Sequence record: PP886229
Reading direction: 5' to 3' (one strand)
DNA: 64,000 nucleotides
From: Escherichia phage vB_EcoM_E9
This document shows, piece by piece, positions 5,008 through 16,376 of the stretch; position 1 is the stretch's first letter; each line of letters opens with the position of its first letter. Made by a program: the position numbers and the translations under genes. Under the pieces are notes generated by a model. The model searched no databases. It was not told the origin of the DNA and saw only the letters and a program-made list of their open reading frames with translations.

Positions 5008-5408
5008 TAACGAATAACCTGTGTGACTTGAATTGCTTCAGTTACGGACAAATCACCTACTTTCTCTTCTTTGATAAAAGTGAAGGTGAGTTCAACAGGT
5101 TCTTCCTCTTCTTCTTCTTGCTCAACTGGAATACCGTTAAGCTCATCAAAGATTGATTGGGTAGTCCAGTCTTCTCCACCATCTGGATAGTGGATGGCAT
5201 AAAGAGGAAACTCTAAATTATACCAAGCAAAAACAGGACAACCGTCTGCATCATCTCGGCATCTGTGGAGGTACGTATTTGTACCTTCAAAATGCAAATG
5301 AAGATTGCCATTCTTCTCAAATAGAAGAGCATCTCGCAGGTCTAGTTCCTTATTTTCGCTGTAACGACTGACATCAACTTTAACGTGGATATGACTGTTA
5401 TTATTCAT
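5007..5408 (-). CDS. hypothetical protein with poly-Glu stretch
   Basis: 133 aa ORF, EQEEEEEEP run. Confidence 0.5.
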   Translation of the reverse strand: MNNNSHIHVKVDVSRYSENKELDLRDALLFEKNGNLHLHFEGTNTYLHRCRDDADGCPVFAWYNLEFPLYAIHYPDGGEDWTTQSIFDELNGIPVEQEEEEEEPVELTFTFIKEEKVGDLSVTEAIQVTQVIR

Positions 5409-5799
5409 AAAAACCTCTCTCTGCTTGTTCGATTTTTGCTCTTAAAGTTTCGCAATGCTGTAAATGGTAGTTAGCTTCTTGTTCATGTGTTGCTAACTGC
5501 CTTTCAAGAACAGTTTTATAGTAACCTGCAAGTTGCTCTTTTGTCAATGGGTGCTCTGAAATAATATCAAGTCCACTTTCACCAAGAGGATTGAATTGTC
5601 CATGCTCATTGACATTGTAAGTCTCAAACTTGAACATACCATTGTTCACAGACTCAATAGGTGACAGTTCAACAAGCTCTACAGTAAACCGTGTATACAC
5701 CTTGTCGCCTCTTGAAACTACATTGTTTCCAATGATGCGTACAAGTGAACCGTTACGAGTGTACTTAAAAGTCCCAAAGTCACTAGCCCAAAGTTTCAT
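5401..5799 (-). CDS. hypothetical protein
   Basis: 132 aa ORF. Confidence 0.5.
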   Translation of the reverse strand: MKLWASDFGTFKYTRNGSLVRIIGNNVVSRGDKVYTRFTVELVELSPIESVNNGMFKFETYNVNEHGQFNPLGESGLDIISEHPLTKEQLAGYYKTVLERQLATHEQEANYHLQHCETLRAKIEQAERGFYE

Positions 5800-6315: not shown

Positions 6316-7448
6316 TATGCCTCCCCTGTTGGGTTAACTGTAACTGTTGCCGCATTAGATGTTACAGAGCCACCTGCACCAGTTACTACACAAGTGTAAG
6401 AACCTGCATCAGCAGCAGTTGCACCTTCTTTGGTGTAAGTTGCAGCAGTTGCGTCTGGGATGACTTCCTCACCTTTCTTCCACTGGTAACCTGTTGCACC
6501 AGTTGCCACAACATTCAGCGTTAAGGTCTCACCTTCAGTGATTTCTTGATTTGCTGGCTGTTGAGTGATTACAGGAAGAGCATTCACAGTAACTGTCGCT
6601 GCATTAGATGTGACTGAACCACCTGCACCAGTTACAACACAAGTGTAAGAACCTGCATCTGCTGGAAGCGCACCAGTCTTGCTATAGGTAGCATTTGTAG
6701 CTGAAGGGATGTTAGAGCCATCTTTCTTCCACTGGTAACCTGTTGCACCTATTGCAGTCACTTCCAAGTTGATGTTTCCACCCTCATTAATGGTCTGACT
6801 AGAAGGTTGCTTGGTAATCACTGGTAGTGCATTAACAGTAACTGTTGCCGCATCTGAAGTAACACTTGTTCCAGCCTCTCCAGACACAACACAAGTGTAT
6901 GAACCAGCATCAGAAGGTGCTACGGATTGTTTTGTGTAAGTTGCAGAGGTAGCACTGGAGATGTCCTCACCACCCTTCTTCCACTGATATCCAGTGGCGT
7001 TAGTTGCAATAACACTTAGGGTAAGTGTTCCACCCTCATTGACCGTTTGGTTTGTTGGTTGTTGAGTAATTGCTGGTGGCTTAATAGCATCCTTCAGCTT
7101 AGCATTCAACATTGAGAAAGGTTTAACTCTTGCCAGCCATTCACAGTAAATTGTGTCAACATCTTTACCGTTGATGATTGCATACTGTAAATCCATGAAG
7201 AAATCAGCAGTCCTCATCTGTGCACCAACACTGTAAAGGAGTTCATCACTAAAAGGGACTTTGTAGTCTGGTTTGTAGTCAAACTTCTCAACCTCTGCGA
7301 TATCAGCTTCAGGCCAATATGAACTATAGGTAAGTGGTAAAATAGCCTCTTGATATGTTCTAAAATCATATCTCTTACCAGCCTTTACATTTGCAATGAA
7401 GCCCTTTACAAATTCTTTGAAGTCTGGATAAGTCTTTGCTTTAATCAT
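6315..7448 (-). CDS. Ig-like domain protein (three tandem Ig-like repeats) with N-terminal domain paralogous to the next gene
   Basis: 377 aa; three ~80 aa repeats each ending ATGYQWKKG...DAGSYTCVV...ATVTV; DNA shows three ~250 bp tandem repeats. Confidence 0.7.
   Translation of the reverse strand: MIKAKTYPDFKEFVKGFIANVKAGKRYDFRTYQEAILPLTYSSYWPEADIAEVEKFDYKPDYKVPFSDELLYSVGAQMRTADFFMDLQYAIINGKDVDTIYCEWLARVKPFSMLNAKLKDAIKPPAITQQPTNQTVNEGGTLTLSVIATNATGYQWKKGGEDISSATSATYTKQSVAPSDAGSYTCVVSGEAGTSVTSDAATVTVNALPVITKQPSSQTINEGGNINLEVTAIGATGYQWKKDGSNIPSATNATYSKTGALPADAGSYTCVVTGAGGSVTSNAATVTVNALPVITQQPANQEITEGETLTLNVVATGATGYQWKKGEEVIPDATAATYTKEGATAADAGSYTCVVTGAGGSVTSNAATVTVNPTGEA
6330..7060. repeat. 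Three tandem ~250 bp coding repeats encoding the Ig-like domains
   Basis: Near-identical stretches such as CCACTGGTAACCTGTTGCACC recur at ~6480, ~6725 and ~6975. Confidence 0.7.
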
Positions 7449-9526: not shown

Positions 9527-10942
9527 ATGAGCGAATTATTTAAACATGCGCACCTTCATGTAGGTCGAACTGAAAATGGTGCTGTAAACCATACTTCATC
9601 AATGTCTGCTCTTGTGGACTTTTACAAAGCTGCTGGTTCCAGCCGTAGTAATGTAGAAATCTTACCAGACTTGTTCTACAAAGCTTTGCGTGAGGATGTT
9701 GATGTTGCAGTTCGTATTTTACTGCATATGCGAGATGTACGAGAAGGTATGGGTGAGCGTAAAGCTTTCCGAACTGTTTTACTTCAAGCGATTGAAGATA
9801 AAGTTTTAGAGCCTACACAGGTTCTTCGCATTATGGATAAGATTGCAGAACTTGGTCGTTTTGATGACTTCAAAATCTTCGTAGGTACTCGTTTTGAGAC
9901 AGATGCCTTCAAACATTTAGAAGCAGCATTACTAGACCCTGCAACATCAGGTTTAGCGGCTAAGTGGTTACCACGAGTAAAACCACGCCACAAACAGTTT
10001 GTAAAACGTTTCTGTAAGTTTGCAAACTTAAGTGAGAAGGAGTATCGCACACTGTTATCTGCACTGTCTGATACGGTTGAGCAAAAAATCTCTGCTAATG
10101 AGTTTGGTAAGATTGACTACAGCAAGATTCCTTCACTCGCTGCTGCACGTTACCAAAAGCTCTTTAACCGTAAAGATGGGGAACGTTACAAAGCTTACAT
10201 TGAGTCCTTATCAAAAGGTGAGGCTAAGATTAACGCTGGTGCTGTTTACCCATACGATGTGATTAAATCTATCAAGTATGGTAATGCAGATGTTGCTAAT
10301 GAGCAGTGGAAAGCACTACCAAACTGGATGGCAGAAGGTGAGAACATCTTGTGTATGACTGATGTTTCAAGCTCAATGTCTTGGGTGAATATTGGTTCAA
10401 TCACTGCCCTTGATATTGGTGTATCACTTGCTTTGTATGTAGCAGAACGCAACACTGGTTGCTTTAAGAATGAGTTAATGGTTTACTCAACAAACCCTCA
10501 CTTCATCGAACTGAGTGGTGATTTACGAAACCGTCATCGTCAGGTAATGCGTCATGTTGAATATGGTTCAACTAACTTACAAGCAGCTTTTGACCGTATT
10601 CTTGAGGTAGGTAAGCGAAACAACTTGACTCAGAAAGATATGCCAAGTAAGCTTATTATCTTCTCCGATATGGAGTTCAATCAGGTTGATGGAGCTAACG
10701 GTCGTACAAACTTTGAAGCAATTCAGAGTAAGTACAAAAAAGCTGGATACGAAATGCCACAACTAGTATTCTGGTACTTAGCAAACCGTAATGGTACTTG
10801 CGAAGTATCTGTTAAGGATAATGGTGTAGCGATGGTATCAGGGTTCTCTCCAGCCACTTTAAAAGCTCTGCTTGGTGGTGAGAAGTTTGACCCAATCAGC
10901 GTAATGCTCAAAGCAGTAATGATTGACCGTTACATCTGGTAA
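9527..10942 (+). CDS. von Willebrand factor A (vWA) domain protein with large N-terminal domain (TROVE/DUF2828-like suspected)
   Basis: 471 aa; MIDAS-like DxSxS motif (CMTDVSSSMSW) in the C-terminal half. Confidence 0.55.
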   Translation: MSELFKHAHLHVGRTENGAVNHTSSMSALVDFYKAAGSSRSNVEILPDLFYKALREDVDVAVRILLHMRDVREGMGERKAFRTVLLQAIEDKVLEPTQVLRIMDKIAELGRFDDFKIFVGTRFETDAFKHLEAALLDPATSGLAAKWLPRVKPRHKQFVKRFCKFANLSEKEYRTLLSALSDTVEQKISANEFGKIDYSKIPSLAAARYQKLFNRKDGERYKAYIESLSKGEAKINAGAVYPYDVIKSIKYGNADVANEQWKALPNWMAEGENILCMTDVSSSMSWVNIGSITALDIGVSLALYVAERNTGCFKNELMVYSTNPHFIELSGDLRNRHRQVMRHVEYGSTNLQAAFDRILEVGKRNNLTQKDMPSKLIIFSDMEFNQVDGANGRTNFEAIQSKYKKAGYEMPQLVFWYLANRNGTCEVSVKDNGVAMVSGFSPATLKALLGGEKFDPISVMLKAVMIDRYIW

Positions 10943-10961
10943 AAAAGTTTTAAAAAGGGTA

Positions 10962-10990
10962 TTGACAATGTGTTTGATACCCTTTAATAT
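10962..10990 (+). promoter_or_regulatory. Sigma70-like promoter TTGACA-N17-TAATAT upstream of the tRNA array
   Basis: Exact -35 hexamer, 17-nt spacer, -10 TAATAT; -35 sits inside inverted repeat GGGTAT/ATACCC. Confidence 0.5.
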
Positions 10991-11108
10991 GTTCTACATA
11001 GAAACGAAATGAGAGCTTTTCTAAGATACTGAAAAATATTTTAAAAAAGTTCTTGACAACCACTAAAAAATAATGTTAAAGTGGTTACATAGAGTTTGAA
11101 AAGTTTAT

Positions 11109-11185
11109 CTCTGTTTAGCTCAGCTTGGTAGAGCGTTCCGTTTGGGGCGGTAAGGCCGGAGGTTCAAGTCCTCCAACAGAGACCA
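11109..11185 (+). tRNA. tRNA-Pro (anticodon TGG)
   Basis: 7-bp acceptor CTCTGTT/AACAGAG, D-arm GCTC..GAGC, T-arm GGAGG-TTCAAGT-CCTCC, 3' CCA. Confidence 0.7.
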
Positions 11186-11192
11186 AATTAAT

Positions 11193-11270
11193 GTTCCAGT
11201 AGACAAAATGGTAAAGTCACCACTCTTTCAAAGTGGATATTTGAGGGTTCAAATCCCTTCTGGAACGCCA
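11193..11270 (+). tRNA. tRNA-Glu (anticodon TTC)
   Basis: Acceptor GTTCCAG/CTGGAAC, anticodon stem CCACT/AGTGG, T-loop TTCAAAT, CCA. Confidence 0.7.
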
Positions 11271-11277
11271 GTTTTGA

Positions 11278-11350
11278 CAGAAGACCAATTGCAGCAAACT
11301 TAATCTTATTCATCTGACACGAAATCGGACAAAGAAGAGATTTGGTCTGG
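11278..11350 (+). ncRNA. Stem-bounded tRNA-sized element, copy a (CAGAAG-AGACCAA ... TTGGTCT-GG)
   Basis: 7-bp terminal stem 11282-11288/11342-11348; conserved CAGAAG leader and CAGCAA box; no T-loop consensus. Confidence 0.4.
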
Positions 11351-11361
11351 TCATTAAGAAT

Positions 11362-11438
11362 TGCGGGTATAGAGAAAGGGCGTCTCACATGTCTCATTAG
11401 CATGGTATCGGCAGGTTCGACTCCTGCACCCGCCTCCA
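11362..11438 (+). tRNA. tRNA-Met-like (anticodon CAT), mismatched 1:72 pair
   Basis: Anticodon stem CATGT/GCATG, T-arm GCAGG-TTCGACT-CCTGC, CCA. Confidence 0.55.
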
Positions 11439-11444
11439 AATTTA

Positions 11445-11508
11445 CAGAAGACCGTTTACAGCAATATTTATTAAATTTTTAGCGGAAAAATTGAAAGATA
11501 CGGTCTGG
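11445..11508 (+). ncRNA. Stem-bounded element, copy b (CAGAAG-AGACCGT ... ACGGTCT-GG)
   Basis: 7-bp terminal stem with compensatory changes relative to copies a and c. Confidence 0.4.
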
Positions 11509-11521
11509 TAATACTAAACAT

Positions 11522-11598
11522 GGTTAGGAAGCACATAAGGTATGTGCGGTCGCCTGTTAAGCGAATGGCACAGGGTTCGAATCCCTGACTAACCGCCA
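11522..11598 (+). tRNA. tRNA-Asn (anticodon GTT)
   Basis: D-arm GCAC..GTGC, T-arm CAGGG-TTCGAAT-CCCTG, CCA. Confidence 0.65.
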
Positions 11599-11607
11599 AA
11601 TTTAAAT

Positions 11608-11695
11608 GTGTCGTTATCCCGTAGATGGTAGCGGTGGGGACTGTAAATCCCTTGTCATTGAGACTCGGTAGGTTCGACTCCTACACGGCACACCA
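11608..11695 (+). tRNA. tRNA-Tyr (anticodon GTA), long variable arm
   Basis: Acceptor GTGTCGT/ACGGCAC, anticodon stem GGGGA/TCCCT, T-arm GTAGG-TTCGACT-CCTAC, 88 nt. Confidence 0.7.
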
Positions 11696-11701
11696 AATAA
11701 A

Positions 11702-11779
11702 GGTTATGTAGTTTAATCTGGTTAAAATACTCCCCTGTCACGGGAGATGATGTGAGTTCAAGTCTCATCGTAACCGCCA
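11702..11779 (+). tRNA. tRNA-Asp (anticodon GTC)
   Basis: Acceptor GGTTATG/CGTAACC, anticodon stem CTCCC/GGGAG, CCA. Confidence 0.7.
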
Positions 11780-11866
11780 AATTATAATAAGTATTTCAAG
11801 ATGATGTTTTGAGAGGGCTATTTAGCCCCTCCCTTAAAGAGTTCTTACGAGTATTCTTTAAAGGAG

Positions 11867-11940
11867 CAGAAGACCAAATTCAGCAAGTTACTTAAAATTT
11901 CAAGCCAATTTAATTTTGAAAAATTTAAAACTTGGTCTGG
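11867..11940 (+). ncRNA. Stem-bounded element, copy c (CAGAAG-AGACCAA ... TTGGTCT-GG)
   Basis: 7-bp terminal stem 11871-11877/11932-11938. Confidence 0.4.
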
Positions 11941-11953
11941 CTCAAAAATTTTA

Positions 11954-12085
11954 CAGAAGACCGTTTACAGCAAAACTTAAACAATCTATTTCTCCGGTAA
12001 AGAAAAGGCGAAGGTTCGATTCCTTCACTCGGCAGATGTCGAGTTGGTGTAATGGTAGCACTTAAGATGATAAACAACGGTCTGG
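11954..12085 (+). ncRNA. Stem-bounded element, copy d, enclosing tRNA halves in permuted order
   Basis: 8-bp terminal stem AGACCGTT/AACGGTCT (11958-11965/12076-12083); contains a T-arm and a D-arm in reversed order. Confidence 0.4.
11989..12061 (+). tRNA. Candidate circularly permuted tRNA (anticodon GGT, Thr-like): 3' half 11989-12034 precedes 5' half 12038-12061
   Basis: 3' half has anticodon arm TTTCT-CCGGTAA-AGAAA, T-arm GAAGG-TTCGATT-CCTTC, acceptor ACTCGGC; 5' half has acceptor GTCGAGT (7 bp with one G-U) and D-arm GTGT-AATGGTA-GCAC. Confidence 0.35.
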
Positions 12086-12086
12086 T

Positions 12087-12230
12087 AATTATCTTTGTAG
12101 ATAAGTTATTAAGCTTACCTGTGAGTATGCGACCACAAAGGGTGAAAGGGCAAATTCTAGATTTAAACCCAACAAGGCACATCGCTACAGACCTTAAGCA
12201 AGTCTGGGTAGCTTATCTACAAAGATAATT
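12087..12230. repeat. 19-bp perfect inverted repeat AATTATCTTTGTAGATAAG (12087-12105 / 12212-12230) flanking ~106 bp
   Basis: Arms are exact reverse complements. Confidence 0.6.
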
Positions 12231-12234
12231 TAAT

Positions 12235-12310
12235 GGAAGTGTAGCAGAATGGTGATGCGGCAGACTTTTAATCTGACAGGCGATGGGTTCGAATCCCTCC
12301 ACTTCTACCA
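12235..12310 (+). tRNA. tRNA-Lys (anticodon TTT)
   Basis: Acceptor GGAAGTG/CACTTCT, loop CTTTTAA, T-loop TTCGAAT, CCA. Confidence 0.6.
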
Positions 12311-12314
12311 ATAT

Positions 12315-12391
12315 GGTTCAGTCGCAGATAAGGTAATGCAGGGGTCTCATAAGCCCTATGAATGTGGGTTCGATTCCCATCTGAACCTCCA
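12315..12391 (+). tRNA. tRNA-Met or tRNA-Ile2 (anticodon CAT)
   Basis: Perfect acceptor GGTTCAG/CTGAACC, loop CTCATAA, CCA. Confidence 0.7.
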
Positions 12392-12392
12392 A

Positions 12393-12468
12393 GCTGGTAT
12401 AGTTAAGAAGGTTATAACACTCCCCTGATAAGGGAACATCGGTGGTTCGATTCCACCTACCAGTACCA
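12393..12468 (+). tRNA. tRNA-Ile (anticodon GAT)
   Basis: T-arm GGTGG-TTCGATT-CCACC, loop CTGATAA, CCA. Confidence 0.65.
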
Positions 12469-12483
12469 ATTTCAATAAAGTTG

Positions 12484-12512
12484 TTGACATTGAGATGTGA
12501 CTACTTTATAGT
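12484..12512 (+). promoter_or_regulatory. Sigma70-like promoter TTGACA-N17-TATAGT inside the tRNA array
   Basis: Exact -35 at 12484-12489 and -10 TATAGT at 12507-12512 with 17-nt spacer. Confidence 0.55.
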
Positions 12513-12805
12513 AACTGAAAATAATTCAGCATATGTATAATTCAAACACCAATACATGAGCGTTAGACGTAACACAATGTGGGGAAATTTGTTGTACATA
12601 TTCTGAATAGTTTTCGTTGCGTAGCGTCTATTTTGCAAATTTAAAATAAATGCAAACGACAATGTTTTTCTGGCAGTAGCTTGATAGGCTAAACACCAGT
12701 GAGGTCTTCCAATCCCTCATCAAAGAATTTGGCGTACTAGCCCACGGTATGATTAATAAGGTGGGCATCTTTAAGGGCTTTCTAAGAGAGTCTTTAAAGA
12801 TTAAT

Positions 12806-12882
12806 GCACCCTTAGTTCAATTGGATAGAGCAACGGTCTTCTAAATCGTTAGTTACAGGTTCGAATCCTGTAGGGTGTGCCA
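12806..12882 (+). tRNA. tRNA-Arg (anticodon TCT)
   Basis: D-arm AGTTCAATTGGATAGAGC, loop CTTCTAA, T-loop TTCGAAT, CCA. Confidence 0.7.
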
Positions 12883-13024
12883 AATAGTTAGCAGATTGCT
12901 TAGACGACCTTATCGGGTCTCCGTGTAAGGAGGTGGTCTGTATCTCATGTTTTCCAGAACATGTAAATAATCTGAGAAGGGGCTTTACAGTGTTGCGAAA
13001 ATACGGTAAGCTTCGAATTACAGT

Positions 13025-13107
13025 ATGGGACGATGTTAAGACTCTAAGGCATGAGCAACGGCCTCCAAAACCGTTTCAAAGGGGTTCAACTCCTCCGTCC
13101 CATGCCA
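13025..13107 (+). tRNA. Atypical tRNA-like sequence, anticodon unassigned
   Basis: Acceptor ATGGGAC/GTCCCAT plus T-loop-like GGGGTTCAACTCC and CCA, but no clean D-arm or 7-nt anticodon loop. Confidence 0.3.
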
Positions 13108-13120
13108 AAGTCTTATTAGG

Positions 13121-13208
13121 GGTAGGTAGCGGCTAATGGCAGCCAAACAGTCTTGAAAACTGTTGCCACTGTAGAGATACGGTGAGGGTTCGACTCCTTT
13201 ACTTACCG
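13121..13208 (+). tRNA. tRNA-Ser (anticodon TGA), long variable arm
   Basis: Anticodon stem ACAGT/ACTGT, loop CTTGAAA, long variable arm, T-loop TTCGACT; no encoded CCA. Confidence 0.6.
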
Positions 13209-13364
13209 CCTAATAAGATTTACACCGTCCATGCTTGCTCGCATTTTCGGTTTATCCCTCGTGTATTGTCGTACACTGATAAAGCACCTAGCAGGTGTCA
13301 CGGAGAAGAGATAATATCAAGCTCTCCAAAGGTTCTAGTCACCGGATTAAACAAGACTATGCAA

Positions 13365-13384
13365 AGACCTATTTAGGTCTTTTT
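13365..13384 (+). terminator. Rho-independent terminator AAGACCT-ATTT-AGGTCTT followed by TTTTT
   Basis: 7-bp stem plus T-run, inside the tRNA array. Confidence 0.6.
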
Positions 13385-13463
13385 AGAGGGCTTCTAAGGT
13401 TATTACAGCTTGTTGTGGAACCTTGTTGCTTAGGTTCTTAGAAGTTCTCTAAAAAGATTTAAT

Positions 13464-13541
13464 GGGAGATTGACGGTAATTGGTAAACCTACCATCCTTA
13501 GAAGTTGGTGTTTGAGGGTTCGAATCCCTTGTCTCCTACCA
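13464..13541 (+). tRNA. tRNA with apparent anticodon TAG (Leu-type) but short variable arm; identity uncertain
   Basis: Acceptor GGGAGAT/GTCTCCT, T-arm GAGGG-TTCGAAT-CCCTT, CCA; 78 nt. Confidence 0.5.
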
Positions 13542-13548
13542 AATTAAT

Positions 13549-13624
13549 GCAGGTGTAGCAAAATGGTTATGCGGCTGACTCTTAATCAGTAAGACGATGG
13601 GTTCAATTCCCTCCACCTGTACCA
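13549..13624 (+). tRNA. tRNA-Lys (anticodon CTT)
   Basis: Anticodon stem GCTGA/TCAGT, loop CTCTTAA, CCA. Confidence 0.65.
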
Positions 13625-13630
13625 AACAAT

Positions 13631-13706
13631 GGGGTCATAGTTTATATGGTTAAAATTCTAGTTTTGCAAACTTGGGAACTGAGTTCAATTCTCAGTGACT
13701 CCACCA
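13631..13706 (+). tRNA. tRNA-Ala (anticodon TGC)
   Basis: Acceptor GGGGTCA/TGACTCC with the G3:U70 wobble typical of tRNA-Ala; CCA. Confidence 0.75.
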
Positions 13707-13712
13707 ATTAGT

Positions 13713-13787
13713 GCATCCATAGTTTAAACGGGAAAATTACAGTCTTCCAAACTGAGGTTGAGGGTTCGATTCCCTCTGGATGCTCCA
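13713..13787 (+). tRNA. tRNA-Gly (anticodon TCC)
   Basis: Perfect acceptor GCATCCA/TGGATGC, loop CTTCCAA, CCA. Confidence 0.7.
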
Positions 13788-13794
13788 AATTAAT

Positions 13795-13870
13795 GCTCCT
13801 ATCGTATAATTGGCTATTACGGTTGCCTTGTAAGCAACTTATCAGGGTTCGAATCCTTGTGGGAGCACCA
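13795..13870 (+). tRNA. tRNA-Thr (anticodon TGT)
   Basis: Anticodon stem GTTGC/GCAAC, loop CTTGTAA, T-loop TTCGAAT, CCA. Confidence 0.7.
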
Positions 13871-13874
13871 ATTT

Positions 13875-13961
13875 AGAGGTCAAGTGAAAGACCGCTTTGA
13901 GTCAACTGAAGACCGTAACAAATTCCACGGAGTTGAGTTAGCGGCACAACTTCAGACCTCT
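13875..13961 (+). ncRNA. Stem-bounded ~87 nt non-tRNA element (AGAGGTC ... GACCTCT) containing GAAGACC motifs
   Basis: 7-bp terminal inverted repeat 13875-13881/13955-13961; no T-loop consensus. Confidence 0.3.
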
Positions 13962-13966
13962 TTAAT

Positions 13967-14041
13967 ACTCGCTTAGTTTATATGGTAAAACACCACCCTT
14001 ACAAGATGAAGAAAAAGGTTCAAGTCCTTTAGTGAGTACCA
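13967..14041 (+). tRNA. tRNA-Val (anticodon TAC), weak anticodon stem
   Basis: Acceptor ACTCGCT/AGTGAGT, D-arm GTTT..AAAC, T-arm AAAGG-TTCAAGT-CCTTT, CCA. Confidence 0.5.
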
Positions 14042-14042
14042 T

Positions 14043-14120
14043 GTTCCAGTATCCCAATTGGTAGAGGATGCAAGCTCAAACCTTGCACTAGTGACGGTTC
14101 GAATCCGTCTTGGAACACCA
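14043..14120 (+). tRNA. tRNA with anticodon CAA (Leu-type) but class I architecture; identity uncertain
   Basis: Perfect anticodon stem GCAAG/CTTGC, loop CTCAAAC, T-arm GACGG-TTCGAAT-CCGTC, CCA. Confidence 0.55.
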
Positions 14121-14125
14121 ATTTT

Positions 14126-14201
14126 GCAGGATTAGTTCAAATGGATAGAGCAACAGTCTACGAAGCTGTTAATAGGGGTTCGAATCCCTTATCCTGCACC
14201 A
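14126..14201 (+). tRNA. tRNA-Arg (anticodon ACG)
   Basis: Perfect acceptor GCAGGAT/ATCCTGC, loop CTACGAA, CCA. Confidence 0.7.
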
Positions 14202-14219
14202 ATTAAGTAAGAGGGATTT

Positions 14220-14462
14220 ATGCAAACATTAATAGTCGTTGAACATGAAAATTCCAATAGCATTGAGTTTGTAAGGGTTCCCACTATAGATACCCACATT
14301 TTCTTGAAAGTCGGCTGGGGATGCGACCCAATAAGAGTAGAAAAATTTATTGGTCATTGCTTTGGTGGAAGACAACTTAAAAGTGTCAATTTTGAGACAA
14401 TGCTACCAGAAAACTCAGAAACAAATAATAATGCTTACCTCCTTACGAGGATTAGACAATGA
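14220..14462 (+). CDS. hypothetical protein embedded in the tRNA array
   Basis: 80 aa ORF in a tRNA-free gap, stop overlaps the next ORF start. Confidence 0.4.
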   Translation: MQTLIVVEHENSNSIEFVRVPTIDTHIFLKVGWGCDPIRVEKFIGHCFGGRQLKSVNFETMLPENSETNNNAYLLTRIRQ

Positions 14463-15016
14463 GATACTTAAAATATGTTTCATGGATTTTCTTAGCTTTG
14501 TTAGAGCCATTTGCAGCAATCTTAGCAGTTATCTTAGCACCTTTTGTAGTTCCATTTTACAGTGAGAAGAAAGGACACTTACCTTTCGGATTTAGATGGA
14601 TGGAAACTTATGACAACCCGATTGATGGTGATGAAGGTCATGTCAAACGATGGGCTAAGATTAGAAAGATTGGTAAGCTTGGTGTCTATTTACAGAGAGT
14701 TGGATGGCTCTGGAGAAACAAAGCTTATAACTTCTCTTACCATGTGTTAGGAAGAGATGTAAAAGATGTTACTAAGTGGAAAGGTAATATCAACGTAAGC
14801 TCTGACCCTGAAGATAATCAGACAGGTTATCTCCTAATGTGGAACAGTAATGCTTGGGGATTATTCGCTTTTATCCCATCAATTAAAGTCTTTGGTAAAC
14901 AATTCTACTGGAGAATTTATGTTGGATGGAAACTTAAAAGTGTTGTCCCAGAAGAAAGAGCATTCTCAAGGGAAAGAGTTATGTTGGCATTCTTTATTCA
15001 TCCACTAAGAAAGTAA
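14459..15016 (+). CDS. putative membrane protein embedded in the tRNA array
   Basis: 185 aa; N-terminal hydrophobic helix (WIFLALLEPFAAILAVILAPFVVPF). Confidence 0.5.
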   Translation: MRYLKYVSWIFLALLEPFAAILAVILAPFVVPFYSEKKGHLPFGFRWMETYDNPIDGDEGHVKRWAKIRKIGKLGVYLQRVGWLWRNKAYNFSYHVLGRDVKDVTKWKGNINVSSDPEDNQTGYLLMWNSNAWGLFAFIPSIKVFGKQFYWRIYVGWKLKSVVPEERAFSRERVMLAFFIHPLRK

Positions 15017-15024
15017 AGATTTAA

Positions 15025-15100
15025 AGGGGATTAGTTTACAAGGTTAAAACCTCGGTCTTTGAAATCGAAGAAGTTGGTTCAATTCCAACATCCCCCGCCA
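15025..15100 (+). tRNA. tRNA-Gln (anticodon TTG)
   Basis: Anticodon stem TCGGT/ATCGA, loop CTTTGAA, T-arm GTTGG-TTCAATT-CCAAC, mismatched 1:72 pair. Confidence 0.6.
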
Positions 15101-15102
15101 AT

Positions 15103-15181
15103 GCTCCATTACTCCAATTGGCAGAGAGGCCAGACTTAAAATCTGTGTTATGTATCGGTTCGAATCCGATATGGAGTACCA
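15103..15181 (+). tRNA. tRNA with anticodon TAA (Leu-type) but no long variable arm; identity uncertain
   Basis: Acceptor GCTCCAT/ATGGAGT, loop CTTAAAA, T-arm ATCGG-TTCGAAT-CCGAT, CCA. Confidence 0.5.
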
Positions 15182-15186
15182 AATTT

Positions 15187-15262
15187 AGCGGTATAGCATA
15201 ACTGGCAATGCAGCAGTCTCTGAAGCTGTCTTATTAAGGTTCAAATCCTTATGCCGCTGCCA
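15187..15262 (+). tRNA. tRNA-Gln (anticodon CTG)
   Basis: Anticodon stem GCAGT/GCTGT, loop CTCTGAA, T-arm TAAGG-TTCAAAT-CCTTA, CCA. Confidence 0.6.
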
Positions 15263-15293
15263 CTTCTAAGGGTTCTTACGAGAGTCCTTAAAT

Positions 15294-15369
15294 GTGGCCT
15301 TATCATAAATGGTAATGACCCATGCTGTGAACATGGTCTATACGGGTTCAAATCCCGTAGGTCACCCCA
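15294..15369 (+). tRNA. tRNA-His (anticodon GTG)
   Basis: Perfect anticodon stem CCATG/CATGG, loop CTGTGAA, CCA. Confidence 0.65.
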
Positions 15370-15375
15370 ATTTAT

Positions 15376-15451
15376 AGTCCAAGTAGCTTATATGGTTAAA
15401 GCGCGTGTCTGAAAAACATGAGAAGAGGGTTCAAATCCCACTGGACTACCA
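15376..15451 (+). tRNA. tRNA-Phe (anticodon GAA)
   Basis: Loop CTGAAAA, T-loop TTCAAAT, acceptor 3' strand CTGGACT, CCA; overlaps the GTG start proposed by the ORF track. Confidence 0.55.
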
Positions 15452-15467
15452 ATTTCAAAGGTGCTTA

Positions 15468-16202
15468 ATGAAAGAGATGACAGAACAAGGTAAGGAGATT
15501 TTTAATCTCTTAAAAACCGGTAGAGGGTTTTCTAACCCCCTTATTACTGGTGCAGCAGTTCTCGGTGGAACCGTAGCTGCCTCTACATCACTTGTAAGCT
15601 CTATTAGCTCTGTAACAGACCCTACAATAAAGGATAAGCTTGTTGCTGCTGGGCTTACAACAGTTCTGCTTAATAGCTTTACAACGAGTCTGACAAGCAC
15701 TACATCAACTACTAAGACACTGACAGATTACGGTCAAAAGTCCATTGATGAGTTTTCATCACGTATGCAGGTAGCAAAAGGATATTCCAATGTTATGGGT
15801 GCAGCAGGAGAGCAAGTCGGTTGTACGCCATTTAGTGGTATTATGGGTGTTGCTACAGAATATGGTCAAAAAGCTATTGACACGATTAACAACACGTTAG
15901 ACAGTGTTAATGATGTATTAAGTGACTTACAAGATGCTATTGATAAAGGTCTTGATACTGTTTCTGATTTAGCTAACCAAGCTGTTAGCAAGATTAATGA
16001 AGGTATCTCGAAGATTACAGCTTATGCAGATGAAGTTGTGCAGATGATTGAAGAAGAAGCTGCCCTTATTGCAGAGTACCTTAAAACGAATATCAATGGG
16101 TTCTTAGCAGGTATCTTACCAGACTGGTTTGACGATGCTTGTAAAACTGGTGTGATTGACACTATTGCAACACAAGAAATGAAGAACGCATTACAGAAAT
16201 AA
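15468..16202 (+). CDS. hypothetical Ser/Thr-rich protein with N-terminal hydrophobic segment
   Basis: ORF track 15405..16202 starts at a GTG inside tRNA-Phe; in-frame ATG at 15468 (MKEMTEQ) clears the tRNA. Confidence 0.5.
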   Translation: MKEMTEQGKEIFNLLKTGRGFSNPLITGAAVLGGTVAASTSLVSSISSVTDPTIKDKLVAAGLTTVLLNSFTTSLTSTTSTTKTLTDYGQKSIDEFSSRMQVAKGYSNVMGAAGEQVGCTPFSGIMGVATEYGQKAIDTINNTLDSVNDVLSDLQDAIDKGLDTVSDLANQAVSKINEGISKITAYADEVVQMIEEEAALIAEYLKTNINGFLAGILPDWFDDACKTGVIDTIATQEMKNALQK

Positions 16203-16203
16203 T

Positions 16204-16296
16204 GGAAGATTAACCCTAAAAGGTAAGGGAGCAGTTTGCTAAACTGCCAGTAGCTGAGAAATCGGTGTACCAGTTCAAGTCTGGTATCTTCCTCCA
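16204..16296 (+). tRNA. tRNA-Ser (anticodon GCT), long variable arm
   Basis: Perfect anticodon stem GCAGT/ACTGC, loop TTGCTAA, T-arm ACCAG-TTCAAGT-CTGGT, CCA; 93 nt. Confidence 0.65.
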
Positions 16297-16300
16297 ATTT

Positions 16301-16376
16301 GAATCCGTGACAGAAATGGCTATGTGCCTGTCTGCAAAACAGGTTTATAAGGGTTCGAGTCCCTTCGGATTCTCCA
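16301..16376 (+). tRNA. tRNA-Cys (anticodon GCA)
   Basis: Perfect acceptor GAATCCG/CGGATTC, anticodon stem CCTGT/ACAGG, loop CTGCAAA, CCA. Confidence 0.7.

What the first reader, a model, noticed from the sequence alone, without database searches (positions are those of the whole stretch)
11109..16376. About 27 tRNA genes in 5.3 kb, interrupted by protein genes, promoters and a terminator
The array is not one uniform operon. It contains internal sigma70-like promoters (10962, 12484), an internal terminator (13365-13384), and three protein-coding genes (14220-14462, 14459-15016, 15468-16202), two of them membrane-type. A membrane protein inside a tRNA array is unexpected.
Basis: partly seen in the sequence, partly recalled or inferred. 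Interest (0 to 1): 0.5.

Follow-up and report, generated by a model that had tools for sequence, protein, structure and literature searches.

The report
Felix O1-type phage tRNA island
This is the well-known tRNA gene cluster of a Felix O1-like phage and is ordinary in itself, but its "gaps" hold conserved, mostly unannotated RNA genes: a tRNA-mimicking Y RNA next to a phage Ro60 gene, and a tmRNA-like tag-coding RNA for which I found no tRNA-like half.

Summary
ARAGORN finds 26 tRNA genes at 11109-16376, all on the + strand, and I found one more atypical tRNA-Trp(CCA)-like gene at 13025-13107. The three embedded ORFs are genuine conserved genes: phrog_14202, Pfam DUF7338 and Pfam DUF7217. The window is a Felixounavirus, about 97% identical to published phages. 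The same array with the same ORFs was described for Felix O1 in 2010, so the finding as stated is already known. The proposed terminator at 13365-13384 is not supported; it is the 5' arm of a long conserved hairpin. Only DUF7338 is clearly membrane-anchored. Its high-confidence model matches no solved fold.

The tRNA-free gaps are more interesting than the ORFs:
- **Ro60 homologue.** The upstream gene (9527-10942) is a structural Ro60 homologue.
- **Y-RNA-like modules.** Four modules follow it, one of them a YrlA-type permuted tRNA mimic (11954-12085).
- **Tag-coding RNA.** A promoter-driven tmRNA-like RNA (12592-12766) encodes the tag ANDNVFLAVA**. It has a covarying stem and pseudoknot and is shared with Ackermannviridae and a group of ~46-kb phages. 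I could find no alanine-type tRNA-like domain for it.

The parts
9527..10942 (+). Phage Ro60 (TROVE + vWA) homologue, Pfam DUF2828/DUF7788, directly upstream of the array
   Evidence: Pfam and PHROG 'RNA-binding protein' matches. AlphaFold model pLDDT 84.4. The ten best Foldseek PDB matches are all Ro60/Rsr/TROVE: 2i91_A E 8e-8, TMq 0.65; 9l5y, Thermus phage phiLo Ro60; 2nvo. 34% identical to mycobacteriophage Samty 'Ro-like RNA binding protein' (E 4e-72).
10962..11082 (+). Two tandem sigma70-like promoter candidates (10962-10990, 11053-11082) in front of the first tRNA. The first lies inside a hairpin at 10954-10985.
   Evidence: 10/12 matches each. Direct repeat D19 of an A/T-rich stretch plus TTGACA. 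These are consensus matches only.
11109..11779 (+). tRNA block 1: Pro(UGG), Glu(UUC), atypical Met(CAU) at 11362-11438, Asn(GUU), Tyr(GUA), Asp(GUC)
   Evidence: ARAGORN and Rfam. The Met gene is not hit by Rfam, and tRNAscan gave its Felix O1 counterpart a Cove score of only 28.9.
11278..11350 (+). Y-like module 1: CAGAAGACC..GCAGCAA..GGUCUGG hairpin
   Evidence: Motif search gives 4 exact copies in this region against 0.03 expected by chance. Stem partners covary between copies (ACCAA/UUGGU against ACCGU/ACGGU), as read from the sequence.
11445..11508 (+). Y-like module 2
11867..11940 (+). Y-like module 3
   Evidence: Conserved in Suspvirus and Mooglevirus.
11954..12085 (+). Y-like module 4: a YrlA-type permuted tRNA mimic. 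Order: closing stem AGACCGUU/AACGGUCU, V hairpin, T arm GAAGGUUCGAUUCCUUC, acceptor-like hairpin, D arm GUGUAAUGGUAGCAC.
   Evidence: The fold gives a four-way cloverleaf. In alignment A1, 91.6% of cells are paired and the acceptor-like helix has 3 of 6 pairs with compensatory changes in three versions. Weak Rfam tRNA hit at 11977-12027.
12087..12230 (+). Long hairpin (22-nt arms, 95% complementary, 100 nt enclosed) directly 5' of tRNA-Lys
   Evidence: Inverted repeat I2. The arms are conserved while the interior is replaced in Moogle and Susp viruses.
12235..12468 (+). tRNA block 2: Lys(UUU), Met/Ile2(CAU), Ile(GAU)
12484..12512 (+). Internal sigma70-like promoter TTGACA-17-TATAGT in front of the tag RNA
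   Evidence: Best site in the scan, 11/12 matches. TTGACA is conserved in all Ounavirinae examined, including Erwinia phage M7.
12592..12766 (+). tmRNA-like tag-coding RNA module. Parts: closing helix (12592-12597 with 12734-12740), AGUUUUCG motif (12609-12616), tag frame GCA..GCU at 12652-12681 = ANDNVFLAVA, stops at 12682-12687 in a hairpin loop, stem plus pseudoknot, and hairpin 12741-12766 with the conserved loop GGUAUGAUUAAUAAG (relatives: GGUGUGAUUAAUAAU).
   Evidence: Tag found in all relatives. Weak Rfam tmRNA and tmRNA_permuted hits. ARAGORN makes a permuted-tmRNA call in Moogle. Family found in 73 IMG/VR stretches and 744 phage records. In alignment A4, 98.2% of cells are paired, with 5 compensatory pairs including the pseudoknot. 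Closing helix.
12767..12801 (+). Hairpin spacer directly 5' of tRNA-Arg(UCU). Similar ...GUUCUUACGAG..UCUUUAAAG... hairpins precede other tRNAs.
   Evidence: Inverted repeat I18. A similar motif is seen at 11829-11858 and in Erwinia phage L007, around 5405-5435.
12806..12882 (+). tRNA-Arg(UCU)
13025..13107 (+). Atypical tRNA-Trp(CCA)-like gene with 9 nt instead of 2 between the acceptor and D stems, and an encoded CCA end
   Evidence: T-arm repeat family D3 and similarity D17 to tRNA-Arg. Weak Rfam tRNA-Sec hit. Anticodon loop CUCCAAA is invariant, and there are compensatory changes in the anticodon, T and D stems across three genera. Erwinia phage M7 carries a standard tRNA-Trp instead.
13121..13210 (+). 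tRNA-Ser(UGA)
13368..13466 (+). Long conserved hairpin directly 5' of tRNA-Leu(UAG).
   Evidence: Inverted repeat I1. Fold z-score -5.1, with no shuffle folding as well. One compensatory pair between the window and SUSP2/Sf18.
13464..14201 (+). tRNA block 3: Leu(UAG), Lys(CUU), Ala(UGC), Gly(UCC), Thr(UGU), Val(UAC), Leu(CAA), Arg(ACG)
14220..14462 (+). 80-aa accessory ORF (phrog_14202), with no hydrophobic segment
   Evidence: Present full-length in only 69 phage records, at 48-97% identity.
14459..15016 (+). DUF7338 protein (185 aa): N-terminal transmembrane helix plus a conserved ~150-aa domain
15025..15451 (+). tRNA block 4: Gln(UUG), Leu(UAA), Gln(CUG), His(GUG), Phe(GAA)
15468..16202 (+). 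DUF7217 protein (244 aa), helical, with a borderline hydrophobic segment
   Evidence: Pfam E 5e-88; weak PHROG similarity to tape-measure C-terminal regions. Conserved in all four Ounavirinae genera examined (45% identity in Erwinia phages) and at ~27% identity in Ackermannviridae, where some records call it a structural protein. Equals Felix O1 ORF49.
16204..16376 (+). tRNA block 5: Ser(GCU), Cys(GCA)

Best explanation
The stretch is the tRNA island of a Felix O1-like myovirus (genus Felixounavirus). It holds 26 standard tRNA genes plus one atypical tRNA-Trp-like gene. All lie on one strand, between a phage Ro60 homologue gene and the terminase gene.

Shown here:
- The identity of the phage and the synteny of the island.
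- That the tRNAs and the three ORFs are real.
- That the ORFs are conserved.
- That the large gaps contain conserved, structured RNA elements.

Inferred:
- The island is transcribed early from several host sigma70-type promoters (about 10962/11053 and 12484) as long precursors.
- Host RNase P and 3'-end processing enzymes release the tRNAs from these precursors.
- The protein genes (the 80-aa ORF, DUF7338, DUF7217) ride on the same transcripts as accessory early genes.
- The 27 anticodons form a nearly complete decoder set: all 20 amino acids and 45 of 61 sense codons under standard wobble. The set would top up or replace host tRNAs for an A/T-rich genome.
- The four CAGAAGACC..GGUCUGG modules, one of which encloses a YrlA-type tRNA mimic, are Y-RNA-like partners of the neighbouring Ro60 homologue.
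- The RNA at 12592-12766 is a tmRNA-like coding module whose tag (ANDNVFLAVA) is read by ribosomes. How it is delivered to ribosomes is unknown, because no alanine-accepting tRNA-like domain was found.
For: Identity:
- 96.8% identity over 5.8 kb to Salmonella phage UAB_69 and other Felixounavirus genomes. 403 records match, and 224 of them cover at least 80% of the query.
- Same gene order in annotated relatives and in Felix O1 itself.

tRNAs. The Trp-like gene rests.

ORFs:
- Family matches in Pfam and PHROG.
- Homologues.
- Felix O1 ORFs 45, 46, 48 and 49 were reported as maximally expressed 5 min after infection (PMC3185647).

Decoder set: it covers 76% of the codons used in this window. 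The uncovered codons are almost all NNU/NNC codons of four-codon boxes, for which the phage has a U34 tRNA.

Ro60 homologue.

YrlA-like RNA:
-.
- The V-T-AS-D architecture follows Chen et al. 2014 (PMC4201824).
- Phage Ro60 with adjacent Y-like RNAs is documented (PMC12135203).
- The full modules are present in the three genera that carry the Ro60 gene next to the array. They are absent in Erwinia phage M7, which lacks the gene there.

Tag RNA.
Against: - There are no expression or processing data for this phage. Promoter-like sites are no more frequent than chance.
- Standard wobble leaves 24% of codons unread, including the commonest Gly, Ala, Val and Thr codons. The set therefore cannot replace host tRNAs completely unless U34 superwobble is assumed.
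- The YrlA-like RNA lacks the GNCGAA(N0-1)G motif that Chen et al. link to Ro60 binding. It matches no Rfam family, and its covariation rests on only three lineages.
- The tag RNA has no recognisable acceptor stem with G3:U70, no T arm and no CCA end nearby. ARAGORN and Rfam do not call it.
- An expert survey listed no enterobacterial phage with ssrA (PMC4131195).
- My pattern scan fixed several tag codons, so the evidence for coding constraint is only partly unbiased.
Confidence: 0.85

Rival explanations
1. The embedded protein genes are functionally tied to the tRNAs. Under this view the array is a purpose-built composite unit, for example with a membrane protein acting in tRNA use, import or defence evasion. 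This is the spirit of the first reader's interpretation.
For: - DUF7338 lies between tRNA genes in Felixounavirus and Suspvirus.
- Its relatives in four T4-like genera lie 0.3-1.8 kb downstream of tRNA genes on the same strand.
- DUF7217 lies between tRNA-Phe and tRNA-Ser in all four Ounavirinae genera examined.
Against: - DUF7338 is absent from Moogle with no other change to the array.
- Its relative in an Aeromonas phage lies next to tail-fibre and baseplate genes instead.
- In Klebsiella phage Menlow, DUF7217 lies 40 kb from that phage's tag RNA.
- Neither protein has an RNA-related domain, and the DUF7338 model matches no solved fold.
- In T4-like phages the tRNA region is a general hot spot for accessory early genes (my own knowledge).
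Confidence: 0.12
2. The interruptions are passengers with no relation to tRNA function. They are accessory genes and homing-endonuclease-type insertions that accumulate between tRNA genes, because those intergenic slots tolerate insertions and are well transcribed.
For: - Presence/absence polymorphism. The 80-aa ORF is in only 69 records and DUF7338 is missing in Moogle.
- HNH endonuclease genes sit at different slots in Felix O1 (ORF44, 45, 47), SLAM_phiST56 and EcSzw-2.
- An 85-nt insertion in front of the tag RNA is present in only some Felixounaviruses.
Against: - DUF7217 and the RNA modules are conserved in position over long divergence, as far as Erwinia phages for DUF7217 and the tag RNA.
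- This view explains the protein genes but not the structured RNAs.
- It is compatible with the best explanation for the ORFs rather than a true alternative to it.
Confidence: 0.5
3. The tag-coding module and the YrlA-like element are decaying remnants with no present function: a captured, circularly permuted tmRNA gene that was split by tRNA insertions.
For: - In Moogle the acceptor-like hairpin loop reads GCCA. ARAGORN joins that element to the tag 560 nt downstream as one permuted tmRNA.
- The element has the same topology as the tRNA-like domain of a two-piece tmRNA precursor (read from the sequence).
- No chargeable end is conserved.
Against: - The tag module is conserved, with compensatory changes in a stem and a pseudoknot, across Ounavirinae, Ackermannviridae and a group of ~46-kb phages.
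- In the part of the tag that my search pattern did not constrain, all changes are synonymous or stop-to-stop.
- The T and D arms of the YrlA-like element are invariant, while its acceptor-like stem covaries.
- Relics would not keep this pattern.
Confidence: 0.12

Closest known systems
tRNA gene cluster of Salmonella phage Felix O1 and other Ounavirinae (Whichard et al. 2010, PMC3185647; Sf14 study PMC12482277)
   Same: Same genus-level locus, with the same order of tRNAs and of ORF42 (Ro-like), ORF48 (DUF7338), ORF49 (DUF7217), ORF51 and the terminase. Grouping into sub-clusters and a mismatch to host codon usage were already described.
   Different: Minor differences only. This window has the 80-aa ORF and no HNH endonuclease insertions. 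Published descriptions list 22-26 tRNAs and do not describe the Trp-like gene, the Y-like modules or the structure of the tag RNA.
tRNA regions of phages T4 and T5 (my own knowledge: T4 tRNA cluster with ORFs tRNA.1-4, the homing endonuclease segB and stable RNAs C and D; T5 tRNA region interspersed with small ORFs)
   Same: Tandem tRNA genes transcribed from host-type promoters, processed by host RNases, and interspersed with small ORFs, homing endonucleases and non-tRNA stable RNAs.
   Different: Unrelated phage families. The non-tRNA RNAs here (YrlA-like, tag RNA) have no described counterpart in T4 or T5.
Ro60-Y RNA modules of bacteria and phages (YrlA: Chen et al. 2014, PMC4201824; Thermus phage phiLo Ro60 with Yrl1/Yrl2, PMC12135203)
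   Same: A Ro60-fold protein gene with small structured RNAs encoded beside it. One RNA has the YrlA order of elements: V stem-loop, T arm, closed acceptor-like stem, D arm, with tRNA-invariant T and D loops.
   Different: The protein belongs to the DUF2828 branch and is only about 13% identical to solved Ro60 proteins. The RNAs lack the (GN)CGAA motif and instead share CAGAAGACC...CAGCAA...GGUCUGG. The RNAs lie downstream of the gene and inside a tRNA array. Binding has not been tested. According to PMC12135203, the phage examples known to its authors were mycobacteriophages, CcrColossus and phage G; Felix O1-like phages are not mentioned.
tmRNA (ssrA), including two-piece tmRNAs from permuted genes and the tRNA-like-domain-only tmRNA of mycobacteriophage DS6A (PMC4131195; PMC9004378)
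   Same: A reading frame that resumes on GCA (Ala) after an A-rich UAAAU context. A ten-residue tag A-N-D-x-x-F-L-A-V-A resembling ANDENYALAA. Stop codons in the loop of a helix-5-like hairpin. A downstream H-type pseudoknot.
   Different: No acceptor stem with G3:U70, no T arm and no CCA end belonging to the module. The module is closed by its own helix and in Ounavirinae has its own promoter. It falls below the Rfam and ARAGORN thresholds. In this sense it is the converse of DS6A, which has only the tRNA-like domain.

Membership tests
Phage tRNA gene cluster (Felixounavirus type) | Tandem same-strand genes that fold as tRNA cloverleaves with anticodons | tested here: met
   ARAGORN genes. 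Rfam, with bit scores of 29.6-62.8.
Phage tRNA gene cluster (Felixounavirus type) | Synteny with the Felix O1 cluster, between the DUF2828 gene and the large terminase gene | tested here: met
Ro60 / TROVE proteins | HEAT-repeat ring plus a C-terminal vWA domain with a MIDAS motif | tested here: met
   Full-length Foldseek matches to Ro60 structures (TMq up to 0.65, E 8e-8). The DxSxS motif DVSSSMS aligns with the Ro60 MIDAS region. The sequence-only profile match is weak (E 0.6).
Ro60 / TROVE proteins | Binds Y RNA or misfolded RNA | not testable with these tools
   Needs EMSA or RIP.
YrlA-type Y RNA | V, T, acceptor-like and D stem-loops in that order, with tRNA-like T and D loops | tested here: met
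   T loop UUCGAUU and D loop UAAUGGUA are invariant.
YrlA-type Y RNA | Acceptor-like stem not conserved in sequence but conserved in pairing | tested here: met
   Three versions; 3 of 6 pairs are compensatory; 98.6% of cells are paired.
YrlA-type Y RNA | GNCGAA(N0-1)G motif near the 5' end (proposed Ro60 contact) | tested here: not met
   Motif absent from 11954-12085 (sequence). A different motif, CAGAAGACC..CAGCAA, is conserved.
YrlA-type Y RNA | Encoded next to a Ro60 gene | tested here: met
   About 1 kb downstream on the same strand.
YrlA-type Y RNA | Match to a curated covariance model | tested here: not met
   No Rfam family other than a weak tRNA hit at E up to 10.
tmRNA | Tag reading frame that resumes on an Ala codon and ends with a hydrophobic C-terminus and stop codon(s) in helix 5 | tested here: met
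   GCA...GCU UGA UAG = ANDNVFLAVA** at 12652-12687. Helix-5-like pairing holds in all 20 aligned sequences.
tmRNA | Pseudoknot(s) flanking the frame | tested here: met
   The downstream pseudoknot pairs in 100% of cells, with 2 of 4 pairs compensatory. An upstream PK1 equivalent was not established.
tmRNA | tRNA-like domain: acceptor stem with G3:U70, T arm and 3' CCA, formed by the ends of the molecule or by a second piece | tested here: not met
   No such domain in the window. The only uncalled T arms are in the YrlA-like and Trp-like elements. The YrlA-like stem is closed and lacks G3:U70. ARAGORN finds nothing in the window or in five other family members.
tmRNA | Reaches the Rfam gathering score or is called by ARAGORN | tested here: not met
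   RF00023 scores 15.2 bits against a threshold of 47, and RF04321 scores 23.6 against 47. ARAGORN calls it only in Moogle, and places the 5' domain wrongly inside tRNA-Lys.
Intrinsic terminator (at 13365-13384) | G+C-rich hairpin followed by a U run, not engaged in a competing structure | tested here: not met
   Not called. Its 3' arm and U run pair within a longer hairpin.
Holin (the label some records give to DUF7338) | Small membrane protein of the lysis cassette; similar to a known holin family | tested here: not met
   No holin family in Pfam or PHROG. It has a single transmembrane helix plus a 150-aa conserved domain with no solved-fold match. It is not adjacent to the endolysin gene. 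Reported as maximally expressed at 5 min in Felix O1. T4-like phages that carry it have their own T holin (my own knowledge).

The most novel reading that the evidence does not exclude
The RNA at 12592-12766 may represent an undescribed, widespread class of phage RNA. It would be a self-contained tmRNA-like coding domain without its own tRNA-like domain. Its features are the tag A-N-D-x-x-F-L-A-V-A, a helix-5-like hairpin, a pseudoknot and a closing helix. It is present in hundreds of virulent enterobacterial phage genomes: Ounavirinae, Ackermannviridae and a ~46-kb group that includes Bas77. It would either team up in trans with a tRNA-like partner or interfere with host trans-translation. 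In Felix O1-like phages it sits in the tRNA array beside a Ro60/YrlA-like ribonucleoprotein module.
Probability: 0.4. Interest if true: 0.75.

Novelty: already known. Interest (0 to 1): 0.4.

Why it matters
As stated, the finding adds nothing new. The Felix O1 tRNA cluster and its embedded ORFs have been in the literature since 2010.

The value lies in what the gaps contain.
- **Ro60/Y-RNA module.** Felix O1-like phages grow on E. coli and Salmonella and are in standard collections such as BASEL. A Ro60 homologue with YrlA-like RNAs there would make the still unclear role of phage Ro60-Y RNA particles testable in a tractable system.
- **Tag RNA.** A tag-coding tmRNA-like RNA without a tRNA-like domain, shared by at least three phage lineages, raises a direct question. 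Do phages tag proteins, or do they block the host's ribosome-rescue system?
- **Decoder set.** Together with a near-complete set of decoders, the island looks like a compact toolkit for translation and RNA quality control.

Tried and rejected
- **Partner search by RNA-RNA duplex scan.** I scanned the tag RNA against the rest of the array in three phages. It gave only long, non-homologous spurious duplexes and I dropped it.
- **ARAGORN tmRNA mode.** Run on the window and on all fetched loci, it returned nothing except the Moogle call, whose 5' tRNA domain lies inside tRNA-Lys.
- **Rfam at permissive thresholds.** Run on the gap and on the Erwinia locus, it gave no Y RNA family and only sub-threshold tmRNA hits. 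A weak resemblance of the Y-like modules to Dictyostelium Class I RNA (E 6.6) was treated as chance.
- **One-piece tmRNA idea for the ~46-kb group.** I considered a 5' GGGGGCA strand pairing with a downstream UGCUCUC. The flanks are not conserved among members, so I rejected it.
- **Conventional ORF covering the tag.** Erwinia has an in-frame ATG, but Felix-type phages have an in-frame TAG and no start codon (sequence). Rejected.
- **Sequence-only evidence for Ro60.** This was weak (E 0.6), so I used structure prediction instead.
- **DUF7217 homologue search.** It returned mostly close relatives (58-98% identity). I did not model its structure.
- **Felix O1 report of gp49 as a 51-kDa virion protein.** This does not fit the ~26 kDa predicted for ORF49, and the protein is absent from the shotgun proteome list. 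I did not rely on it.

Full report
**Observation**

ARAGORN finds 26 tRNA genes between 11109 and 16376, all on the + strand. Rfam supports 25 of them. The exception is the tRNA-Met(CAU) at 11362-11438. It has three nucleotides between the acceptor and D stems and a U at position 37, and tRNAscan gave its Felix O1 counterpart a Cove score of only 28.9.

No tRNA-Trp is called. However, a T arm plus acceptor end with CCA lies at 13082-13107 (repeat family D3). By eye it extends to an 83-nt tRNA-Trp(CCA)-like gene at 13025-13107, with nine instead of two nucleotides between the acceptor and D stems. Its anticodon loop CUCCAAA is invariant across Felixouna-, Susp- and Moogleviruses. Its stems change in a compensatory way:
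- anticodon stem: ACGG/CCGU against UAAG/CUUA
- T stem: G-C against U-A
- D stem: CUC/GAG against CAC/GUG

The three ORFs exist and match curated families: phrog_14202, Pfam DUF7338 (E 5e-62) and Pfam DUF7217 (E 5e-88).

**What the window is**

The 5.8-kb region is 96.8% identical to Salmonella phage UAB_69 and Escherichia phage pEP20. It matches 403 phage records, mostly Felixounavirus. Annotated relatives, and Felix O1 itself, show the same order:
- DUF5681 gene
- DUF2828 'RNA-binding protein' gene
- tRNAs interrupted by the same ORFs (Felix O1 ORF48 = DUF7338, ORF49 = DUF7217)
- a 66-aa ORF
- large terminase gene

The Felix O1 genome paper already described the cluster, its sub-groups, the pseudo-tRNAs and the codon-usage argument. 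It also reported ORFs 45, 46, 48 and 49 as maximally expressed 5 min after infection (PMC3185647). The finding as written is therefore already known.

**Promoters and terminator**

Sites close to the sigma70 consensus lie at 10962, 11053 and 12484. Such sites are no more frequent than in shuffled sequence (14 against 14.2), so each is only a candidate. The 12484 site (TTGACA-17-TATAGT) keeps its TTGACA and its position in Moogle, Susp and Erwinia phages.

The proposed terminator at 13365-13384 is not called. Its 3' arm and U run pair with 13437-13462 in a hairpin of about 95 nt (inverted repeat I1; z -5.1). That hairpin sits directly 5' of tRNA-Leu and shows one compensatory change between genera. 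I read it as a spacer or processing hairpin rather than a terminator.

**The embedded proteins**

*DUF7338 (185 aa).*
- It has a strong N-terminal transmembrane helix.
- It has invariant motifs TYDNxxDGDxGH, WLWRNxAYN and GWKLK.
- The 'holin' label in some records has no support.
- It is missing from Moogle.
- Relatives at about 57-62% identity occur in T4-like phages. In four of five examined they lie 0.3-1.8 kb downstream of tRNA genes on the same strand (MX01, Matisse, Miller, Melville). In an Aeromonas phage the relative lies beside tail-fibre and baseplate genes.

*DUF7217 (244 aa).*
- It is conserved in all four Ounavirinae genera examined (45% identity in Erwinia phages) and at about 27% identity in Ackermannviridae, where some records call it structural.
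- Its hydrophobic segment is borderline.
- The Felix O1 claim that gp49 is a 51-kDa virion protein does not fit a predicted 26 kDa, and gp49 is absent from that paper's shotgun list.

*The 80-aa ORF.* It occurs in only 69 records but stays open at 48% identity.

In relatives, HNH endonuclease genes occupy other intergenic slots. The simplest reading is that these are accessory early genes using well-transcribed, insertion-tolerant slots. A functional tie to tRNAs is not excluded but is unsupported.

**The decoder set**

The 27 anticodons cover all 20 amino acids and, under standard wobble, 45 of 61 sense codons. That is 76% of the codons used in 63 long ORFs of this window, where 68% of codons end in A or T. 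The unread codons are almost all NNU/NNC codons of four-codon boxes, where the phage carries a U34 tRNA. This fits the published ideas that phage tRNAs match an A/T-rich genome or replace host tRNAs lost during infection (my own knowledge). It does not amount to a self-sufficient set.

**The gaps: a Ro60 homologue and Y-RNA-like modules**

The DUF2828 protein upstream of the array gave a good model (pLDDT 84.4). Its ten best PDB matches are all Ro60, Rsr or TROVE structures over the full length. They include Ro60 of Thermus phage phiLo. It is also homologous to mycobacteriophage 'Ro-like RNA binding proteins'.

Downstream, a motif CAGAAGACC(N4-5)CAGCAA occurs four times (0.03 expected). Each copy is followed 50-115 nt later by GGUCUGG, and the pairing nucleotides covary between copies.

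The fourth module (11954-12085) encloses a cloverleaf in permuted order: V hairpin, T arm, closed acceptor-like hairpin, D arm. This is exactly the architecture described for YrlA Y RNAs (PMC4201824). In 12 distinct sequences the T and D arms are invariant. The acceptor-like stem exists in three fully compensated versions, and 91.6% of all cells are paired.

Erwinia phage M7 has no Ro60 gene beside its array, and it lacks the full modules.

Against membership: the GNCGAA motif is absent and Rfam has no match. I therefore call it YrlA-like, probably a new member of the known phage Ro60/Y-RNA kind. That kind is documented for mycobacteriophages, CcrColossus, phage G and phiLo. Binding is untested.

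**The gaps: a tmRNA-like tag RNA**

ARAGORN called a permuted tmRNA in Citrobacter phage Moogle with the tag ANDNVFLAVA**. Genome announcements mention this in one sentence (PMC4319497, PMC4392139). The same frame is in the window at 12652-12687, just downstream of the 12484 promoter.

The ARAGORN model is wrong in detail. Its 5' tRNA domain lies inside tRNA-Lys, and its 3' domain is the YrlA-like element 560 nt upstream.

The coding part itself is real:
- The tag is identical in Felixouna-, Susp- and Moogleviruses and reads ANDAQFLAVA** in Erwinia phage M7.
- A pattern scan and blastn found the module in 73 IMG/VR stretches and 744 phage records. These include Ackermannviridae (ANDNTFLAVA) and a ~46-kb phage group that includes Bas77 (ANDEQ/ANDDQ/ANDQTFLAVA).
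- In 20 diverse sequences, 98.2% of cells are paired. The structure comprises a helix-5-like hairpin holding the stop codons, a stem with three compensatory pairs and a pseudoknot with two.
- A further hairpin has a free-varying stem and a conserved loop: GGUAUGAUUAAUAAG in the window, GGUGUGAUUAAUAAU in relatives.
- A closing helix joins a segment 8-13 nt upstream of (A/G)GUUUUCG to the segment after the pseudoknot.
- In the part of the tag that my pattern did not fix (codons 8-10 and the stops), all changes are synonymous or stop-to-stop.

What is missing is the defining tRNA-like domain. There is no G3:U70 acceptor stem, no T arm and no CCA end belonging to the module, either in the window or consistently in relatives. 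An exhaustive expert survey listed only mycobacteriophages, phage G and DS6A as phages with ssrA (PMC4131195). I therefore do not file it as a tmRNA. It works like the coding half of one, and its partner or mode of action is unknown.

**Other conserved elements**

The remaining gap sequence also holds:
- a 144-nt hairpin at 12087-12230
- a perfect Shine-Dalgarno-like UAAGGAGGUG followed by a covarying hairpin at 12926-12964, conserved as far as Erwinia phages
- short hairpins directly 5' of several tRNAs

Relatives carry 'long tRNA-like' RNAs (acceptor stem, T arm and CCA with 50-100 nt inserted) near the tag module. I could not explain these.

**Verdict**

The thing described is the known Felix O1-type tRNA island. 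The embedded membrane protein is a conserved accessory gene of unknown function and novel fold, not an anomaly of this window. The most interesting content is the unannotated RNA genes in the gaps. Interest is 0.4 overall. It would be higher if the tag RNA proves to be an undescribed class.

Noticed in passing
window 12592-12766 (tag frame 12652-12687): tmRNA-like tag-coding RNA (ANDNVFLAVA**) with a covarying stem and pseudoknot. It is shared with Ackermannviridae and a ~46-kb phage group, is unannotated in most records, and has no tRNA-like domain that I could find.
   Followed up: yes
window 11278-11350, 11445-11508, 11867-11940, 11954-12085: Four modules sharing CAGAAGACC..CAGCAA..GGUCUGG. 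The last encloses a YrlA-type permuted tRNA mimic. The first two flank the atypical tRNA-Met.
   Followed up: yes
window 9527-10942: The DUF2828/DUF7788 protein is a full-length structural homologue of Ro60 (TROVE + vWA).
   Followed up: yes
window 13025-13107: Atypical tRNA-Trp(CCA)-like gene with a 7-nt insertion between the acceptor and D stems. It is missed by ARAGORN but conserved with compensatory changes. Erwinia phage M7 has a standard tRNA-Trp instead.
   Followed up: partly
window 11362-11438: tRNA-Met(CAU) with a U1:C72 mismatch, three nucleotides between the acceptor and D stems and U37. It is not detected by Rfam.
   Followed up: partly
window 12926-12964; L007 about 5562-5600: A perfect Shine-Dalgarno-like UAAGGAGGUG, then GUCUGUAUCUC and a covarying hairpin (CAUGUU..AACAUG against CCUGAC..GUCAGG). 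It is conserved from Felixounavirus to Erwinia phages. In the window it precedes a 7-codon ORF that is not conserved.
   Followed up: no
window 12087-12230: A 144-nt hairpin with 22-nt arms between the YrlA-like RNA and tRNA-Lys. The arms are conserved, while the interior is replaced in Moogle and Susp viruses.
   Followed up: partly
window 13871-13966: The 96-nt spacer between tRNA-Thr and tRNA-Val is conserved in Moogle. It contains GAAGACCG-type motifs and a CUGAAG/CUUCAG stem.
   Followed up: no
L007:5029-5194; L003 about 6517-6650; L063 downstream of the tag: 'Long tRNA-like' RNAs (7-bp acceptor stem, T arm, encoded CCA, with 50-100 nt inserted) lie near the tag module in Erwinia, Moogle/Susp and Ackermann phages. 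The Erwinia one starts GGGUGAUUCUG, like a tmRNA 5' end, but has G2:U71 rather than G3:U70.
   Followed up: partly
L039-L087 (~46-kb IMG/VR contigs): In the ~46-kb phage group the tag module always starts after CAGUGCUCUUUCC. The same motif starts further downstream modules, which suggests an array of small RNA modules.
   Followed up: no
L012 (Felix O1), L001, L010: HNH homing endonuclease genes occupy different inter-tRNA slots in different relatives. An 85-nt insertion in front of the tag RNA is present in only some Felixounaviruses.
   Followed up: partly
GenBank GU169904.1 'Staphylococcus phage SA1' (hits): This 147-kb Staphylococcus phage record contains stretches about 97% identical to the Felix O1-type array. 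It is probably a chimeric or contaminated record.
   Followed up: no
Felix O1 ORF49 (homologue of window 15468-16202): The Felix O1 paper assigns a 51-kDa virion band to gp49. ORF49 predicts about 26 kDa and is absent from the same paper's shotgun proteome list.
   Followed up: partly
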